From: Escherichia coli
Lineage (GTDB): Bacteria > Pseudomonadota > Gammaproteobacteria > Enterobacterales > Enterobacteriaceae
Direction: 5' to 3' (one strand)
NCBI RefSeq assembly: GCF_045037415.1
Contig: NZ_CP173438.1
DNA: 64,000 nucleotides
Shown here: positions 30,001 to 42,000 of the stretch, one piece after another
Layout of the letters: each line of letters starts with the position of its first letter
Position numbering within the stretch: the stretch's first letter is position 1
Program-made: the position numbers

Positions 30001-33000
30001 TGATCACACAGGAAGATGTGGTGGTCACGCTTTCTCACCAGGGTTACGTGAAGTATCAGCCGCTTTCTGAATACGAAGCGCAGCGTCGTGGCGGGAAAGG
30101 TAAATCTGCCGCACGTATTAAAGAAGAAGACTTTATTGACCGACTGCTGGTGGCGAACACCCACGACCATATTCTGTGCTTCTCCAGCCGTGGCCGCGTC
30201 TATTCGATGAAGGTCTACCAGTTGCCAGAAGCTACTCGTGGCGCACGTGGTCGTCCGATCGTCAACCTGCTGCCGCTGGAACAGGACGAACGTATCACCG
30301 CGATCCTGCCGGTGACCGAGTTTGAAGAAGGCGTGAAAGTCTTCATGGCGACCGCTAACGGTACTGTGAAGAAAACCGTCCTCACCGAGTTCAACCGTCT
30401 GCGTACCGCCGGTAAAGTGGCGATCAAACTGGTTGACGGCGATGAGCTGATCGGCGTTGACCTGACCAGCGGCGAAGACGAAGTAATGCTGTTCTCCGCT
30501 GAAGGTAAAGTGGTGCGCTTTAAAGAGTCTTCTGTCCGTGCGATGGGCTGCAACACCACCGGTGTTCGTGGTATTCGTTTAGGCGAAGGCGATAAAGTCG
30601 TCTCTCTGATCGTGCCTCGTGGCGATGGCGCAATCCTCACCGCAACGCAGAACGGTTATGGTAAACGTACCGCAGTGGCGGAATACCCAACCAAGTCGCG
30701 TGCGACGAAAGGGGTTATCTCCATCAAGGTTACCGAACGTAACGGTTTAGTGGTTGGCGCGGTGCAGGTAGATGATTGCGACCAGATCATGATGATCACC
30801 GACGCCGGTACGCTGGTACGTACTCGCGTGTCGGAAATCAGCATCGTAGGCCGTAACACCCAGGGCGTAATCCTTATCCGTACTTCGGAAGATGAAAACG
30901 TGGTGGGTCTGCAACGTGTTGCTGAACCGGTTGACGAGGAAGATCTGGATACCATCGACGGCAGTGCCGCGGAAGGGGACGATGAAATCGCTCCGGAAGT
31001 GGACGTTGACGACGAGCCAGAAGAAGAATAATTTCATCGCTTCATGCCAAAAGGGAGCCATCTCCCTTTTTTGAATTGAAAAGTCCAGGCTGTAAAGTCT
31101 GGGCTTTTGTCGTATTAGGGCGCGGTAAAGTTTGGCTGTGCCCGTAAAAAATGGCTGGCTATACACAAGGAATGTGGCAATGAGTGGTGAAAAAAAGGCG
31201 AAAGGCTGGCGGTTTTATGGCCTTGTTGGTTTTGGGGCAATAGCGCTGCTATCCGCTGGCGTATGGGCATTACAATACTCTGGCAGTGGGCCAGAAAAAA
31301 CGTTGTCGCCACTGGTGGTGCACAACAATCTGCAAATCGATCTCAATGAGCCGGACCTCTTTCTCGACAGCGACTCTCTGAGCCAGCTTCCCAAAGATCT
31401 CCTTACCATTCCGTTTCTCCACGATGTTCTGAGCGAAGATTTCGTTTTCTATTATCAGAATCATGCCGATCGTCTGGGCATTGAAGGCAGCATTCGCCGC
31501 ATTGTCTATGAACACGATCTCACGCTGAAAGATAAGCTCTTTTCGTCACTCTTAGACCAGCCCGCGCAGGCGGCACTGTGGCACGATAAACAAGGCCATC
31601 TTTCTCATTATATGGTGCTGATCCAGCGAAGTGGTTTAAGCAAGCTGCTGGAGCCATTGCTGTTTGCCGCTACCAGCGACAGCCAGTTAAGTAAAACGGA
31701 AATCAGTAGCATCAAGATAAATAGTGAAACTATTCCTGTTTATCAGTTGCGCTATAACGGCAATAACGTCCTGATGTTTGCGACTTATCAGGACAAAATA
31801 TTGGCTTTTTCCAGTTCGGATATGCTGTTTAAAGATGACCAACAGGATACCGAAGCCACGGCGATCGCAAGTGATTTGTTGAGTGGTAAAAAACGCTGGG
31901 AAACCCGCTTTGGCCTGGAAGCGCGTACTGCCGAAAAAACGCCAGTACGCCAGCGCATCGTAGTCAGCGCCAGGTTGCTGGGGTTTGGCTACCAGCGATT
32001 AATGCCTTCTTTTGCTGGCGTACGCTTCGAAATGGGTAACGACGGCTGGCACAGTTTTCTGGCGTTAAACGATGAATCCGCCAGCGTAGATGCCAGTTTC
32101 GATTTTATGCCGGTATGGAACAGTATGCCTGCCGGAGCCAGCTTCTGTGTGGCGGTGCCGTATTCACACGGTATTGCCGAAGAGATGCTTTCGCACATCA
32201 GCCAGGAAAACGACAAGCTGAATGGGGCGTTAGACGGTGGCGCGGGGCTGTGCTGGTATGAAGACTCAAAATTGCAAACCCCACTGTTTGTTGGTCAGTT
32301 TGATGGCACTGCCGAACAGGCGCAATTGCCAGGGAAACTGTTTACGCAAAATATTGGTGCGCACGAAAGCAAAGCGCCAGAAGGTGTTTTGCCGGTAAGC
32401 CAGACTCAGCAGGGCGAAGCGCAAATCTGGCGTCGCGAAGTGAGTTCCCGATACGGTCAGTATCCGAAAGCGCAGGCGGCGCAACCCGATCAATTAATGT
32501 CGGATTATTTTTTCCGCGTGTCGCTGGCGATGCAAAACAAAACGCTGCTTTTCTCCCTCGATGACACGCTGGTTAATAACGCCCTGCAAACACTGAATAA
32601 AACCCGCCCGGCAATGGTGGATGTAATACCCACTGATGGCATCGTTCCGCTCTATATCAATCCACAAGGAATGGCGAAACTGCTGCGTAACGAAACGCTG
32701 ACCAGTCTGCCGAAGAATCTCGAACCGGTTTTTTATAACGCCGCACAAACTTTATTAATGCCGAAGCTGGACGCTTTATCTCAACAACCGCGTTATGTCA
32801 TGAAGCTGGCCCAGATGGAACCCGGTGTCGCCTGGCAGTGGCTACCCATAACCTGGCAACCGCTATGAGACACGGGCTGCTGGCGCTGATTTGCTGGCTG
32901 TATTGTGTTGTTGCCCATAGCGAAATGCTAAATGTCGAACAATCCGGGCTGTTTCGCGCGTGGTTTGTGCGCATTGCACAGGAACAGCTCCGCCAGGGGC

Positions 33001-39000: not shown

Positions 39001-42000
39001 GTACGTTGCCAGAGTTCTGGATCGCGAGGCGAAAAGTACGCCTCCTGAGGCAGCGAAAGCCATGACCGTGGCGATTCGCACGTTTTTACAGCAAAACGCC
39101 GATCGGGAAGGCGATTGCCTGACCATCCCGGACAGCAGCGCTACGCAGCGTGTTTCTGCTTCGCCAGCTACCACGGGGGCGCGAACGATGACCGCCTGGA
39201 CGCAGGATCTCATCTATGCGGGCGATCCGGTTCATTATCATGGCAGTCGCGCTACCGAAGGGACGCTTTCCTGGCGGCACGCTACTGCCCAGGCGGGGCA
39301 GGGAGAGCGTTATGATCAGATACTCGCGTTTGCTTATCCCGACAACAGCCTTAGCCGCTGGGGAGCGCCACGCTCAACCTGCCAGTTATTACCCAAAGCG
39401 AAAGCCTGGCTGGCGAAAAAAATGCCGCAGTGGCGGCGTATATTACAAGGTGAGACGGGATACAACGAACCAGACGTGTTTGCGGTCTGTCGTTTAGTCT
39501 CAGGTTTCCCCTATACCGATCGGCAGCAGAAACGGCTGTTTATTCGTAATTTCTTTACGCTTCAGGATCGGCTGGATTTAACCCATGAGTATCTGCACCT
39601 GGCCTTTGATGGTTATCCCACCGGGCTTGATGAGAACTATATCGAAACGCTGACCCGACAATTATTAATGGACTAATGCTATGCGAAAGATTTTTCTTCC
39701 GTTGTTACTGGTGGCGCTTTCGCCTGTCGCTCACAGTGAAGGTGTGCAGGAAGTCGAGATTGATGCACCGCTCTCTGGCTGGCATCCGGCAGAGGGCGAA
39801 GATGCCAGTTTTTCACAAACGATCAATTACCCGGCGTCGTCCGTCAACATGGCAGATGATCAAAATATCTCAGCGCAGATCCGCGGCAAAATAAAGAATT
39901 ATGCTGCGGCGGGTAAAGTTCAGCAGGGCCGGCTGGTGGTCAACGGTGCCAGTATGCCGCAGAGAATTGAATCAGATGGTTCTTTTGCACGCCCTTATAT
40001 TTTCACTGAAGGCAGCAACAGCGTGCAGGTCATCAGCCCAGATGGGCAAAGCCGACAAAAAATGCAGTTTTACTCAACGCCGGGTGCTGGGGCGATTCGC
40101 GCGCGTTTACGGCTGGTTCTCTCCTGGGATACGGACAATACCGACCTCGATCTTCATGTCGTTACGCCTGACGGTGAACATGCCTGGTACGGTAACACAG
40201 TGCTGAAAAACAGTGGCGCACTGGATATGGATGTCACGACAGGGTACGGACCCGAGATTTTCGCCATGCCAGCGCCAGTTCACGGCCGTTATCAGGTGTA
40301 TATCAACTACTTCGGCGGGCGCAGTGAAACGGAATTAACTACGGCCCAACTGACGCTGATCACCGATGAAGGGTCGGTCAATGAGAAACAGGAAACTTTT
40401 ATTGTACCGATGCGTAATGCTGGCGAGCTGACGCTGGTGAAAAGTTTTGACTGGTGATTAATGGGGTAACCTTCGCCGTCGATGTTCAAGAAAACGCCCG
40501 ATAACTTTCGCTATCGGGCGTTTTTATTGGTTAATTCAACCGCTCAATCACCATCGCAATTCCCTGGCCGCCACCAATGCATAGTGTTGCCAGCCCCAGC
40601 GTTTTATCGCGTGCCTGCATTGCATGTAATAGTGTGACCAGAATACGAGCACCACTGGCACCGATAGGATGTCCGAGCGCGATGGCCCCGCCGTTGACAT
40701 TCACTTTCTCAGGATCAAAGCCCAGGGTTTTCCCAACGGCAAGGAACTGTGCAGCAAATGCTTCATTAGCCTCAATGAGATCAATATCCGCCAGTTGCAG
40801 CCCCGCCAGTTGTAACGCTTTTTGCGTAGCAGGTACTGGCCCCATACCCATCAATGCGGGGGGCACGCCACCGCTGGCATAACTTTTAATGCGTGCCAGG
40901 GGATTCAGGCCTGCTGCCAGCGCCGCAGATTCTTCCATAATCACCAGAGCGGCAGCACCGTCGTTAATACCTGACGCGTTCCCGGCGGTGACTGTTCCTG
41001 CTTTATCGAAGGCCGGGCGCAATGCGCCTAACGCTTCAGCCGTAGAATCCGCTTTCGGGAATTCGTCTTGACTGAAGACGAAGGTTTTCTTCCGGGTGAC
41101 AACATTTACCGGGACGATTTCGGCTGTAAAAGCACCGGACTCAATTGCGGCTGCCGCTTTACGCTGTGAATGTAGCGCCAGTTCATCCTGCATTTCACGG
41201 GTAATTCCGTACTCTTTAGCCACGTTTTCGGCGGTAATCCCCATATGATAACCATGGGTGGCGCACATCAGGCCATCGCGCAGGATTACGTCATAAACCT
41301 GTCCGTCTCCAAGACGATAACCAGAGCGTGCTTTTGCATCGAGTAAGTAGGGCGCTAAACTCATATTTTCCATACCCCCCGCCACAATGCTCTGTGCCTG
41401 ACCTGCCTGAATCGCCTGTGCAGCAAGCGCCACGCTTTTCAGACCTGAACCGCACACTTTGTTGACCGTGAATCCGCACACCGTTTCAGCTAGTCCGCTT
41501 TTTAGCAGCGCCTGACGTGCCGGATTTTGCCCCAGTCCGGCTTGCAACACGTTACCCATAATCACTTCATCAACGTGTAGTGAATCGATTTTTGCACGTT
41601 CAATGGCGGCTTTAATTACTGTCGCCCCCAGGTCGATGGCGCTGGTGGAAGCGAGTGAACCGTTAAAACTACCGATAGCAGTACGTACCGCACTGACGAT
41701 GACACAATTTTTCATTTTATATTCCTTCTGTCTGTAGGGTTGCCGTCAGAACAGCGTTAAACCAATGACGAAAATGACGCCGGAGAAGAGCAGGGCAGTG
41801 ATGCAATAGCCCATGATGTCGCGGACACCGAGTCCGGCGATTGCCAGTGCTGGCAGCGCCCAGAACGGTTGTGCCATGTTCATCCATTGCTCGCCGTAGG
41901 CGATCGCCATTACCGATTTACCGAGATCAGCGCCCAGCGCCTGGGCTGCGGGCATCACGAACGGCCCCTGAATAACCCAGTGCCCGCCGCCAGACGGAAC

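What the first reader, a model, noticed from the sequence alone, without database searches (positions are those of the whole stretch)
31180..40457. Intact five-gene alpha-2-macroglobulin envelope operon yfaA-yfaT-yfaS-yfaQ-yfaP
Five consecutive same-strand genes are tightly coupled: yfaA TGA overlaps yfaT ATG; the yfaS start lies inside the yfaT 3' end; yfaQ GTG abuts the yfaS TAA; yfaP starts 4 nt after yfaQ; the unit ends at a strong bidirectional terminator. Every product starts with a signal peptide or membrane anchor, so this looks like one periplasmic/envelope complex. YfaS is a very large alpha-2-macroglobulin-family protein and I found no CxEQ thioester motif by eye, placing it with the thioester-less MagD-type proteins known from Pseudomonas. 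From memory yfaS is split into a pseudogene in K-12 MG1655, whereas here it is one continuous ORF. Function in E. coli is essentially uncharacterised; a protease-trapping or envelope-protection role is plausible.
Basis: partly seen in the sequence, partly recalled or inferred. Interest (0 to 1): 0.65.

Follow-up and report, generated by a model that had tools for sequence, protein, structure and literature searches.

The report
E. coli Mag-type macroglobulin envelope operon
This is the intact E. coli copy of a known five-gene operon for a thioester-less bacterial alpha-2-macroglobulin and its four periplasmic partners; it is annotated, near-universal in E. coli, and orthologous to the studied Pseudomonas mag operon, so it is real but not new.

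Summary
It ends at a strong two-way hairpin.

- YfaS has the alpha-2-macroglobulin domain set but no CxEQ. The thioester site reads G-V-I-N.
- The operon is collinear with Pseudomonas magBCDEF: YfaA=MagB, YfaT=MagC, YfaS=MagD, YfaQ=MagE, YfaP=MagF. YfaT matches the MagC crystal structure sequence at E=1e-104.
- Enterobacterales lack the leading magA paralogue.
- MG1655 yfaS is a pseudogene through one TGG-to-TGA nonsense codon (codon 1368), not a frameshift.
- The locus occurs in 5397 of 5426 complete E. coli genomes and is under purifying selection (dN/dS 0.03-0.16).

It is therefore already known and annotated. The likely function comes from Pseudomonas work: an inner-membrane-tethered periplasmic complex that traps incoming proteases non-covalently and protects peptidoglycan.

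Side results:
- Suppressed synonymous variation supports a yfaS start inside yfaT. RefSeq's later GTG start would remove the signal peptide.
- My YfaQ model (PBP/beta-lactamase-like plus SpoIID-like) agrees with a 2025 report.
- 11 of 80 mag-type macroglobulins still carry CVEQ.

The parts
31049..31109 (+). Two terminator-like hairpins with U-runs (about 31049-31073 and 31079-31109) between the gyrA stop (31029-31031) and yfaA. They isolate the operon from gyrA transcription.
   Evidence: Sequence. The fold of 31032-31180 gives -57.6 kcal/mol, z -5.4.
31164..31176 (+). yfaA leader CACA-AGGAA-UGUG. The Shine-Dalgarno AGGA (31168-31171) sits in the loop of a small hairpin, 8 nt before the ATG. 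This is a possible CsrA-type site and only a lead.
   Evidence: The fold is not better than shuffled sequence. The sequence is conserved only within Escherichia.
31180..32868 (+). yfaA: 562 aa, DUF2138, MagB orthologue, with an N-terminal membrane anchor (residues about 12-33, DNA 31213-31278).
   Evidence: Pfam E=2e-285. NCBIfam PRK11410. One hydrophobic segment. AF2 places a helix at 15-34. It holds the MagB position in 60+ Pseudomonas loci.
32865..33488 (+). yfaT: 207 aa, DUF1175, NlpC/P60-like, MagC orthologue. Signal peptide ends ...AHS|E. Cys55, His148 and His160 are invariant.
   Evidence: PDB 7bk8 MagC at E=1.1e-104. Pfam result. The triad is invariant in 79 homologues.
33407..33488 (+). 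Stretch read in two frames: the yfaT C-terminus and the yfaS N-terminal extension. It contains two conserved ATGs (33407 and 33422) with GGAAGGA between them.
   Evidence: yfaT third-codon positions vary at 1 of 27 sites here and at 59 of 180 elsewhere (Fisher p=0.001). The same suppression is seen in 69 Pseudomonas-type loci. N-terminal alignment.
33422..38026 (+). yfaS: 1534 aa type II (thioester-less) alpha-2-macroglobulin, MagD orthologue. The predicted 38-aa signal peptide ends ...ANA|ED.
   Evidence: MG2, A2M_BRD, A2M and bMG10 domains. Profile hits to YfhM/ECAM, Salmonella A2M, C5 and CD109. 52-56% identity to Pseudomonas homologues over 97% of its length.
35972..35992 (+). Bait-equivalent segment T851-NRSER-R857, matching the MagD bait ANRSERG (residues 847-853). 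N852, R853, S854 and R856 are invariant in the family.
   Evidence: Invariant columns. MagD bait sequence from PMC5764988.
36626..36637 (+). Former thioester site: G1069-V-I-N1072, in place of C-x-E-Q.
   Evidence: Profile alignment to ECAM PYGCLEQTAS. Motif survey across homologues.
37523..37525 (+). Codon 1368 is TGG (Trp) here. In K-12 MG1655 it is TGA, the only lesion that makes yfaS a pseudogene there.
38027..39676 (+). yfaQ: 549 aa, GTG start, MagE orthologue.
- N-terminal PBP/beta-lactamase-like domain: S60-x-x-K63 (DNA 38204-38215) and K195-T-W (DNA 38609-38617).
- SpoIID-like domain: REEYVARVLQRE, residues 323-334 (DNA 38993-39028).
- C-terminal module of about 100 aa with an invariant HEYLH at 520-524 (DNA 39584-39598).
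39681..40457 (+). yfaP: 258 aa, DUF2135, MagF orthologue (MagA is its Pseudomonas paralogue). Signal peptide ends ...AHS|E.
   Evidence: Pfam result. Synteny. 49-58% identity to the downstream Pseudomonas copy and 37-43% to the upstream copy.
40491..40528 (.). Two-way intrinsic terminator hairpin shared by yfaP and the convergent atoB (atoB ends at 40531 on the - strand).
   Evidence: Folds of both strands. Sequence.

Best explanation
The region is the E. coli orthologue of the Pseudomonas Mag system. It is one operon encoding a periplasmic complex, tethered to the inner membrane, built around a thioester-less (type II) alpha-2-macroglobulin.

Shown here:
- The five genes are intact, tightly packed and under purifying selection.
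- All five products carry an N-terminal export signal or membrane anchor.
- YfaS keeps the macroglobulin architecture and the conserved NRSER bait segment, but has G-V-I-N where the Cys-Gln thioester would be.

Inferred from Pseudomonas experiments:
- YfaS is exported and held at the inner membrane by the single-pass protein YfaA (MagB), which also stabilises it.
- YfaP (MagF) binds YfaS.
- Cleavage of the bait by an intruding protease makes YfaS close around it and hold it without a covalent bond.

Inferred from folds, motifs and phenotypes:
- YfaT (MagC, NlpC/P60-like) couples the trap to peptidoglycan.
- YfaQ (MagE; PBP-like with SxxK, plus SpoIID-like) does the same.
- The complex would therefore guard or help maintain the cell wall when hydrolytic enzymes reach the periplasm, for example peptidoglycan-targeting type VI effectors or host enzymes.
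For: Anatomy and domains.

Thioester site replaced.

Orthology and synteny:
- The order is P-A-T-S-Q-P in 59 Pseudomonas-type loci and A-T-S-Q-P in Enterobacterales.
- YfaT matches MagC (7bk8) at E=1e-104.
- Sizes, COG classes and signal peptides of MagA-F in PMC3735191 Table 2 match YfaP, YfaA, YfaT, YfaS, YfaQ and YfaP.

Selection and prevalence:
- dN/dS is 0.03-0.16 for all five genes.
- The locus is present in 5397 of 5426 complete E. coli genomes.
- The intact-length protein cluster has 40,950 members.

Mechanism from the literature:
- MagD traps TEV protease non-covalently after bait cleavage, and binds MagA, MagB and MagF at 1:1.
- MagB is needed for membrane association and stability (PMC5764988).
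- Loss of magD sensitises P. aeruginosa to the peptidoglycan-targeting effectors VgrG3 and Tae1 (PMC12663445).

Peptidoglycan link:
- The YfaT triad C55/H148/H160 is invariant.
- YfaQ fold matches are, with invariant S60, K63, K195, T196, E324 and E334.
- An E. coli yfaQ deletion gives wider cells and a phenotype profile that clusters with mepK, mepS and nlpI deletions (10.1101/2025.02.11.637708).
Against: - No experiment on the E. coli proteins as a complex was found in the searchable literature.
- A YfaQ-msfGFP fusion gave no signal in K-12, so expression may be very low under laboratory conditions.
- The simple scan found no promoter between the gyrA terminators and yfaA.
- The yfaQ deletion phenotype was obtained in K-12, where yfaS carries a stop codon. 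YfaQ may therefore act independently of full-length YfaS.
- From memory of the MagC structure paper, which is not held in the library, the MagC catalytic residues sit in an inactive conformation.
- The Pseudomonas authors considered MagE cytoplasmic and not stably in the complex.
- The third PBP motif is K-T-W rather than K-T/S-G.
- E. coli lacks MagA.
- Co-transcription was not tested.
Confidence: 0.75

Rival explanations
1. It is a classical broad-spectrum protease inhibitor only. YfaS traps host or competitor proteases entering the periplasm. The four partners merely anchor, fold and stabilise it and have no action on peptidoglycan.
For: - MagD is cleaved at the bait by chymotrypsin, trypsin and papain, and traps TEV protease.
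- MagA, MagB and MagF are stabilising binders.
- The YfaA model shows only scaffold-like Mog1/PsbP/DcrB-type folds.
- From memory, the MagC catalytic residues are in an inactive conformation.
Against: - The bait segment NRSER is invariant across genera. Broad-spectrum baits are expected to be variable.
- The magD protection phenotype is against a lysozyme-like effector (VgrG3) and an amidase/peptidase effector (Tae1), not against classical proteases.
- Two partners carry peptidoglycan-enzyme folds with invariant catalytic-type residues.
- YfaT is the most conserved protein of the set, at 70-80% identity against 43-57% for the others.
- The yfaQ deletion gives a cell-width phenotype.
Confidence: 0.2
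2. It is a decaying, largely silent relic in E. coli. The genes persist but no longer provide a function, as the K-12 pseudogene and the degenerate thioester domain would suggest.
For: - yfaS is a pseudogene in MG1655.
- Many truncated or fused E. coli YfaS entries exist in the protein database.
- One strain has an IS2 insertion and one a partial deletion (H13 and H29).
- No YfaQ-msfGFP signal was seen.
- The C-terminal half of YfaS is its most variable part.
Against: - dN/dS is 0.03-0.16 for all five genes across Escherichia, and 0.07 for yfaS even against K-12.
- There are no indels across 9.4 kb between the window and K-12.
- The locus covers at least 80% of the query in 5178 of 5426 genomes.
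- The intact-length cluster has 40,950 members, while the truncated forms are singletons.
- A yfaQ deletion has a phenotype.
Confidence: 0.05

Closest known systems
Pseudomonas aeruginosa magABCDEF operon (PA4492-PA4487), the MagD type II alpha-2-macroglobulin complex
   Same: - Same protein families in the same order: DUF2138/MagB, DUF1175/MagC, A2M/MagD, DUF2300/MagE and DUF2135/MagF.
- Same export signals, with one membrane-anchored member.
- No thioester cysteine.
- The same NRSER bait segment.
- YfaT matches the MagC crystal-structure sequence at E=1e-104.
   Different: - E. coli and the other Enterobacterales lack the leading magA gene, a MagF paralogue.
- The thioester site is more degenerate: GVIN, against GVEQ in most Pseudomonas.
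- The P. aeruginosa magA leader is a known RsmA target. The regulation of the E. coli operon is unknown.
- Of the P. aeruginosa proteins, only MagC was compared directly. The other comparisons used 60+ other Pseudomonas species.
E. coli YfhM/ECAM and Salmonella Sa-A2M (type I bacterial alpha-2-macroglobulins, paired with pbpC)
   Same: Same superfamily and overall domain plan. Profile E-values are 7e-13 to 5e-10, with alignments in the MG region and at the thioester-domain site. Both types are genetically linked to a protein with a penicillin-binding fold: PBP1c for type I and YfaQ here.
   Different: - Type I proteins have a lipobox Cys and an active CLEQ thioester. They trap covalently and sit next to pbpC.
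- YfaS has neither an active thioester site nor pbpC next to it.
- YfaS is so diverged that a single-sequence search does not find ECAM at all.
SpoIID/LytB lytic transglycosylases, and class D beta-lactamase / BlaR1-MecR1 sensor / PBP transpeptidase domains (for YfaQ)
   Same: - The SpoIID motif EEYV..V...E is present.
- An SxxK motif sits at the start of the helix that follows the N-terminal strands.
   Different: - Sequence matches fall below the family thresholds: SpoIID_LytB scores 21 bits against a cut-off of 83.
- The third PBP motif is KTW, not KTG.
- An extra C-terminal module with HExxH has no detectable relative.
- No activity has been shown.

Membership tests
Type II (MagD/YfaS-class) bacterial alpha-2-macroglobulin | Alpha-2-macroglobulin superfamily architecture: MG domains, bait-region domain, A2M domain and a C-terminal MG10. 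| tested here: met
   Pfam hits are MG2 at 6e-19, A2M_BRD at 1e-14, A2M at 4e-12 and bMG10 at 1.5e-5. The family profile hits ECAM, Sa-A2M, C5 and CD109.
Type II (MagD/YfaS-class) bacterial alpha-2-macroglobulin | No CxEQ thioester at the site homologous to the thioester-domain motif. | tested here: met
   No CxEQ occurs anywhere in YfaS. The homologous site reads [10 protein letters not shown] against ECAM PYGCLEQTAS. Caveat: 11 of 80 family members in mag-type operons do carry CVEQ, so this feature is not universal in the family.
Type II (MagD/YfaS-class) bacterial alpha-2-macroglobulin | Sec signal peptide without a lipoprotein anchor. | tested here: inconclusive
   With the 33422 start there is one N-terminal hydrophobic segment and an ANA|ED cleavage-type site. 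However, residues 22-25 (I-A-A-C) fit a lipobox pattern. That Cys is Tyr in Escherichia sp. E1V33 and is absent in the other genera, so lipidation is unlikely but not excluded.
Type II (MagD/YfaS-class) bacterial alpha-2-macroglobulin | Encoded in a mag-type operon with MagB-, MagC-, MagE- and MagF/A-family genes. | tested here: met
   Five of the six Pseudomonas genes are present, and the magA paralogue is absent.
Type II (MagD/YfaS-class) bacterial alpha-2-macroglobulin | Non-covalent protease entrapment after bait cleavage, and a 1:1 complex with partners at the inner membrane. | not testable with these tools
   Known only for P. aeruginosa MagD (PMC5764988).
Type I bacterial alpha-2-macroglobulin (ECAM/YfhM, Sa-A2M) | Active CLEQ thioester, conserved lipobox and an adjacent pbpC. 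| tested here: not met
   There is no CxEQ. The neighbours are gyrA and atoB, not pbpC.
NlpC/P60 cysteine peptidase superfamily (YfaT) | Cys-His-His/polar catalytic triad in an NlpC/P60 fold. | tested here: inconclusive
   C55, H148 and H160 are invariant in 79 homologues, and YfaT is near-identical to the solved MagC. The Pfam NLPC_P60 match is only E=0.0012. Catalysis was not tested, and MagC is reported, from memory, to be in an inactive conformation.
Penicillin-binding / serine beta-lactamase fold (YfaQ N-terminal domain) | The fold plus the SxxK, SxN-type and KT(S)G motifs. | tested here: inconclusive
   The fold is matched by two methods. S60-x-x-K63 is invariant and sits at a helix N-terminus, and S108 is invariant. 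The third motif is K195-T196-W197, not KTG. No residue-level superposition was available. Acylation was not tested.
SpoIID/LytB lytic transglycosylase (YfaQ central domain) | SpoIID fold with the conserved glutamate motif. | tested here: inconclusive
   [not shown]

The most novel reading that the evidence does not exclude
The type II macroglobulin system may not be mainly a protease inhibitor. It may instead be a peptidoglycan-damage surveillance and repair machine. In this reading, YfaQ/MagE (a PBP-like domain with an intact SxxK, a SpoIID-like domain and a C-terminal HExxH module) and YfaT/MagC (intact Cys-His-His) are active enzymes on the cell wall or on YfaS itself, for example as the unidentified activity that processes MagD from 165 to 100 kDa. 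YfaS would capture cell-wall hydrolases delivered by competitors. This would parallel the type I A2M-PBP1c pairing. In addition, YfaS/MagD would be made with a conserved, previously overlooked N-terminal extension encoded inside the upstream gene.
Probability: 0.25. Interest if true: 0.6.

Novelty: already known. Interest (0 to 1): 0.27.

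Why it matters
Bacterial alpha-2-macroglobulins are a rudimentary periplasmic defence. The type II class was recently linked to resistance against peptidoglycan-targeting type VI effectors in Pseudomonas.

E. coli carries this system almost universally, yet the standard laboratory strain has a stop codon in the central gene. 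That probably explains why it has stayed uncharacterised in E. coli.

Three points make targeted experiments in E. coli straightforward:
- Natural isolates carry an intact operon that is under selection.
- Each E. coli gene can now be assigned to its Mag counterpart.
- The likely true start of yfaS is known; the RefSeq start would remove the export signal.

None of this changes the classification. It is a known, annotated system.

Tried and rejected
1. Single-sequence searches of PDB with YfaA, YfaQ and YfaP gave nothing meaningful. The same was true for profiles of the YfaP/MagA family and of the YfaQ C-terminal HExxH module, which hit only chance matches to designed repeats, angiogenin and factor XI. 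The idea that the HExxH module is a zincin protease therefore stays untested.
2. NCBIfam names only YfaA, as a 'hypothetical protein' equivalog.
3. Rfam found no RNA family in 28000-43000.
4. The CsrA-site idea for the yfaA leader is weak. The hairpin is no more stable than shuffled sequence, it is conserved only within Escherichia, and no paper links yfaA to CsrA.
5. The two Pfam 'DUF2300' regions of YfaQ were tested as a tandem repeat. BLASTP and hhalign find no similarity between them. I therefore describe YfaQ by folds rather than as a tandem repeat.
7. Budd et al. 2004, the original description of the two bacterial A2M classes, and the MagC structure paper are not held in the library. Statements about them rest on memory or on citing papers.
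8. [quoted passage not shown]
9. Lipoprotein status of YfaS was considered because of I-A-A-C at residues 22-25. I judge it unlikely because the Cys is not conserved.

Full report
**What is there.** Window 31180-40457 (+) holds five consecutive ORFs.
- yfaA: 31180-32868, 562 aa.
- yfaT: 32865-33488, 207 aa.
- yfaS: 33422-38026, 1534 aa.
- yfaQ: 38027-39676, GTG start, 549 aa.
- yfaP: 39681-40457, 258 aa.

yfaA and yfaT share an ATGA overlap. The yfaS ATG lies 67 nt inside yfaT. The yfaS TAA directly abuts the yfaQ GTG. A 4-nt gap precedes yfaP.

Upstream lies gyrA (28404-31031), followed by two terminator-like hairpins. Downstream lies the convergent atoB. Between yfaP and atoB is a hairpin that folds at -26.3 kcal/mol on the + strand and -28.1 kcal/mol on the - strand, with a U-run on each. 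The simple terminator scan missed this hairpin. The same scan found no excess of internal promoter- or terminator-like sites.

Each product has exactly one hydrophobic segment, at its N-terminus. In YfaA it is a 20-residue anchor-like helix. In the other four it looks like a cleavable signal peptide.

**Identity of the proteins.** Pfam gives the following.
- YfaA: DUF2138, E=2e-285.
- YfaT: DUF1175, E=8e-59, plus a weak NlpC/P60 match.
- YfaS: MG2, A2M_BRD, A2M and bMG10.
- YfaQ: two DUF2300 matches plus SpoIID.
- YfaP: DUF2135.

YfaS contains no CxEQ, and its only cysteines are at residues 25, 827 and 1189. A family profile aligns the ECAM motif PYGCLEQTAS to Yfa[11 protein letters not shown] (residues 1066-1075). 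Both thioester partners are therefore replaced.

**Relation to the Pseudomonas mag operon.** A scan of one genome per species returned 390 loci encoding a YfaS relative, of which 80 were kept. I called ORFs in those loci and matched them to the five E. coli proteins.
- 59 Pseudomonas-type loci have the order DUF2135-DUF2138-DUF1175-A2M-DUF2300-DUF2135.
- Escherichia, Superficieibacter, Serratia, Edaphovirga and Citrobacter youngae have the same order without the first gene.
- The sizes, COG classes and signal peptides published for MagA-F (PMC3735191 Table 2) give this mapping: YfaA=MagB (the membrane-anchored member), YfaT=MagC, YfaS=MagD, YfaQ=MagE, YfaP=MagF. MagA is a MagF paralogue that Enterobacterales lack.
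- YfaT matches the sequence of the solved MagC structure (7bk8) at E=1.1e-104.
- Against Pseudomonas, YfaT is 70-80% identical. The other four proteins are 43-57% identical.
- The MagD bait sequence ANRSERG corresponds to YfaS TNRSERR (residues 851-857). N852, R853, S854 and R856 are invariant.

**Status in E. coli.**
- The 9.46-kb region matches 5397 of 5426 complete E. coli genomes, and 5178 of them cover at least 80% of it. It is annotated there as yfaA, yfaT, 'alpha-2-macroglobulin family protein', yfaQ and yfaP.
- MG1655 lists yfaS as pseudogene b4500. Aligned to the window, K-12 shows no indel over 9.4 kb and one in-frame stop, TGG to TGA at codon 1368.
- The intact-length E. coli YfaS cluster has 40,950 member sequences, while the truncated forms are singletons.
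- dN/dS between the window and K-12, two cryptic Escherichia lineages, E. albertii and Superficieibacter is 0.03-0.16 for every gene.
- The operon is therefore a conserved, selected, core-like locus, and K-12 is the exception.

**How it most likely works.** The mechanism is inferred from Pseudomonas experiments.
- MagD is periplasmic and associated with the inner membrane.
- It binds MagA, MagB and MagF at 1:1, and it needs MagB for membrane association and stability.
- After bait cleavage it retains the protease without a covalent bond (PMC3735191, PMC5764988).
- A 2025 CRISPRi screen showed that magD protects P. aeruginosa against the peptidoglycan-targeting T6SS effectors VgrG3 and Tae1 (PMC12663445).

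For the partner proteins I added the following.
- The YfaT residues C55, H148 and H160 are invariant in 79 homologues.
- The N-terminal domain has an invariant S60-x-x-K63 at the start of the first long helix and K195-T196-W197 on the following strand.
- The central domain carries the SpoIID-type motif REEYVARVLQRE.
- This bipartite architecture was already reported for E. coli YfaQ in 10.1101/2025.02.11.637708. That study also found wider cells in a yfaQ deletion and phenotypic similarity to mepK, mepS and nlpI deletions. It does not mention the macroglobulin operon.
- The YfaA model (pLDDT 78) shows an N-terminal helix and scaffold-like Mog1/PsbP/DcrB-type domains only.

Taken together, the best reading is a membrane-tethered trap coupled to peptidoglycan-recognising modules. 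Whether those modules are catalytically active is open.

**The yfaS start codon.** RefSeq annotates the identical sequence (NZ_CP018991) from GTG at window 33512. That gives 1504 aa and no signal peptide. MG1655 uses the equivalent of ATG 33422.

Several results favour ATG 33422.
- Among six Escherichia sequences, yfaT third-codon positions vary at 59 of 180 sites outside the overlap but at 1 of 27 inside it (Fisher p=0.001).
- Variation jumps immediately after the yfaT stop.
- The GTG at 33512 is GCG in two Escherichia lineages.
- In 69 Pseudomonas-type loci, third-position entropy of magC codons 181-198 is about 0-0.2, against about 0.7 elsewhere.
- Both ATGs, and the GGAAGGA between them, are present in the representative loci displayed from every genus.

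ATG 33422, with a Shine-Dalgarno sequence 7 nt upstream, is therefore the likely start. It gives a long signal peptide with a conserved N-terminal extension. The same extension may exist on Pseudomonas MagD, whose annotated start lies about 20 codons downstream.

**Other side observations.**
- 11 of the 80 mag-type macroglobulins carry PYGCVEQTAS or PYGCVEQTSS, an intact CxEQ. They include P. citronellolis, P. panipatensis, P. indica, P. ullengensis and one P. viridiflava isolate. Most Pseudomonas have GVEQ, and Enterobacterales have GV(I/V)N or GAIN. The literature describes the class as cysteine-free.
- YfaS identities do not follow the species tree. Serratia is closer to Pseudomonas (about 61%) than to E. 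coli (55%), and Citrobacter youngae is about 52-56% identical to everything else compared. This fits the patchy, transfer-prone distribution noted in the literature.
- YfaQ ends in a module of about 100 aa with invariant H520-E-x-x-H524, E536 and E540. It has no detectable relatives.

**Verdict.** The object is a known, annotated system, so novelty is 'already known' and interest is low to moderate. The most useful outputs for follow-up are:
- the gene-by-gene Mag mapping;
- the nature of the K-12 lesion;
- the evidence for the overlapping start;
- the synthesis linking YfaQ and YfaT to a peptidoglycan-protective role.

Noticed in passing
window 33407-33488 (and 33512): The yfaT 3' end and the yfaS 5' end are read in two frames. 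Synonymous variation in yfaT is almost absent in this stretch, both in Escherichia (1 of 27 sites against 59 of 180) and in Pseudomonas-type loci. RefSeq's GTG start at 33512 for the identical sequence would remove the signal peptide, and that GTG is not conserved in Escherichia. The annotated Pseudomonas MagD start may likewise be about 20 codons too short.
   Followed up: yes
L011, L016, L017, L020, L023, L024, L029, L033, L035, L054, L079 (YfaS homologues; motif near residue 1080): Eleven of 80 macroglobulins in mag-type operons keep an intact CVEQ thioester motif, although the class is described as thioester-less and cysteine-free. Cys and Gly differ by one base, and the carriers belong to several different Pseudomonas species.
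   Followed up: partly
window 39584-39646 (YfaQ residues 520-540): An invariant HEYLH motif, followed by invariant E536 and E540 on the next predicted helix, lies in a C-terminal module of about 100 aa beyond the SpoIID-like domain. This is a gluzincin-like pattern. Profile searches found no relatives, so a metallopeptidase role is only a lead, for example in processing YfaS/MagD.
   Followed up: partly
window 31164-31176: The yfaA leader CACA-AGGAA-UGUG places the Shine-Dalgarno GGA in a small hairpin loop, resembling a CsrA/RsmA site. The P. aeruginosa magA leader is a known RsmA target. The fold is not significant, and the sequence is conserved only in Escherichia.
   Followed up: partly
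window 33485-33496 (YfaS residues 22-25): I-A-A-C fits a lipobox pattern inside the YfaS signal peptide. The Cys is Tyr in Escherichia sp. E1V33 and is absent in other genera, so lipidation seems unlikely. It was not excluded.
   Followed up: partly
window 32865-33488 versus the neighbouring genes: YfaT is far more conserved than its neighbours: 70-80% identical to Pseudomonas, against 43-57% for the other four proteins. Its dS within Escherichia is about half that of the flanking genes. The overlap with yfaS explains only the last 80 nt of this.
   Followed up: partly
window 38276-38641 and 39260-39625 (YfaQ residues 84-205 and 412-532): Pfam reports two strong DUF2300 matches, but BLASTP and profile-profile comparison find no similarity between the two regions. 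In the model they fall in different folds. The Pfam family may mix two unrelated segments.
   Followed up: partly
L004 (E. albertii NBRC 107761); hits H13, H29, H30: There is sporadic damage to the operon in nature.
- yfaA is split into two ORFs in the E. albertii type strain.
- IS2 is inserted in yfaQ in STEC307.
- E. coli MBT-5 has a partial deletion.
- The region gives no match in 29 of 5426 complete genomes, and at least one further genome (KFu022, H30) matches only the first 151 bp.
   Followed up: no
YfaS homologues in L005, L007, L008, L081 versus Pseudomonas loci: YfaS identities conflict with the species tree. Serratia and Edaphovirga are nearer to Pseudomonas than to Escherichia, and Citrobacter youngae is equidistant from all. 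This suggests independent acquisitions by horizontal transfer.
   Followed up: partly
window 31049-31109: Two consecutive terminator-like hairpins follow gyrA. The simple scan found no sigma-70-like promoter in the roughly 70 nt left before yfaA, so the operon's promoter is undefined.
   Followed up: no
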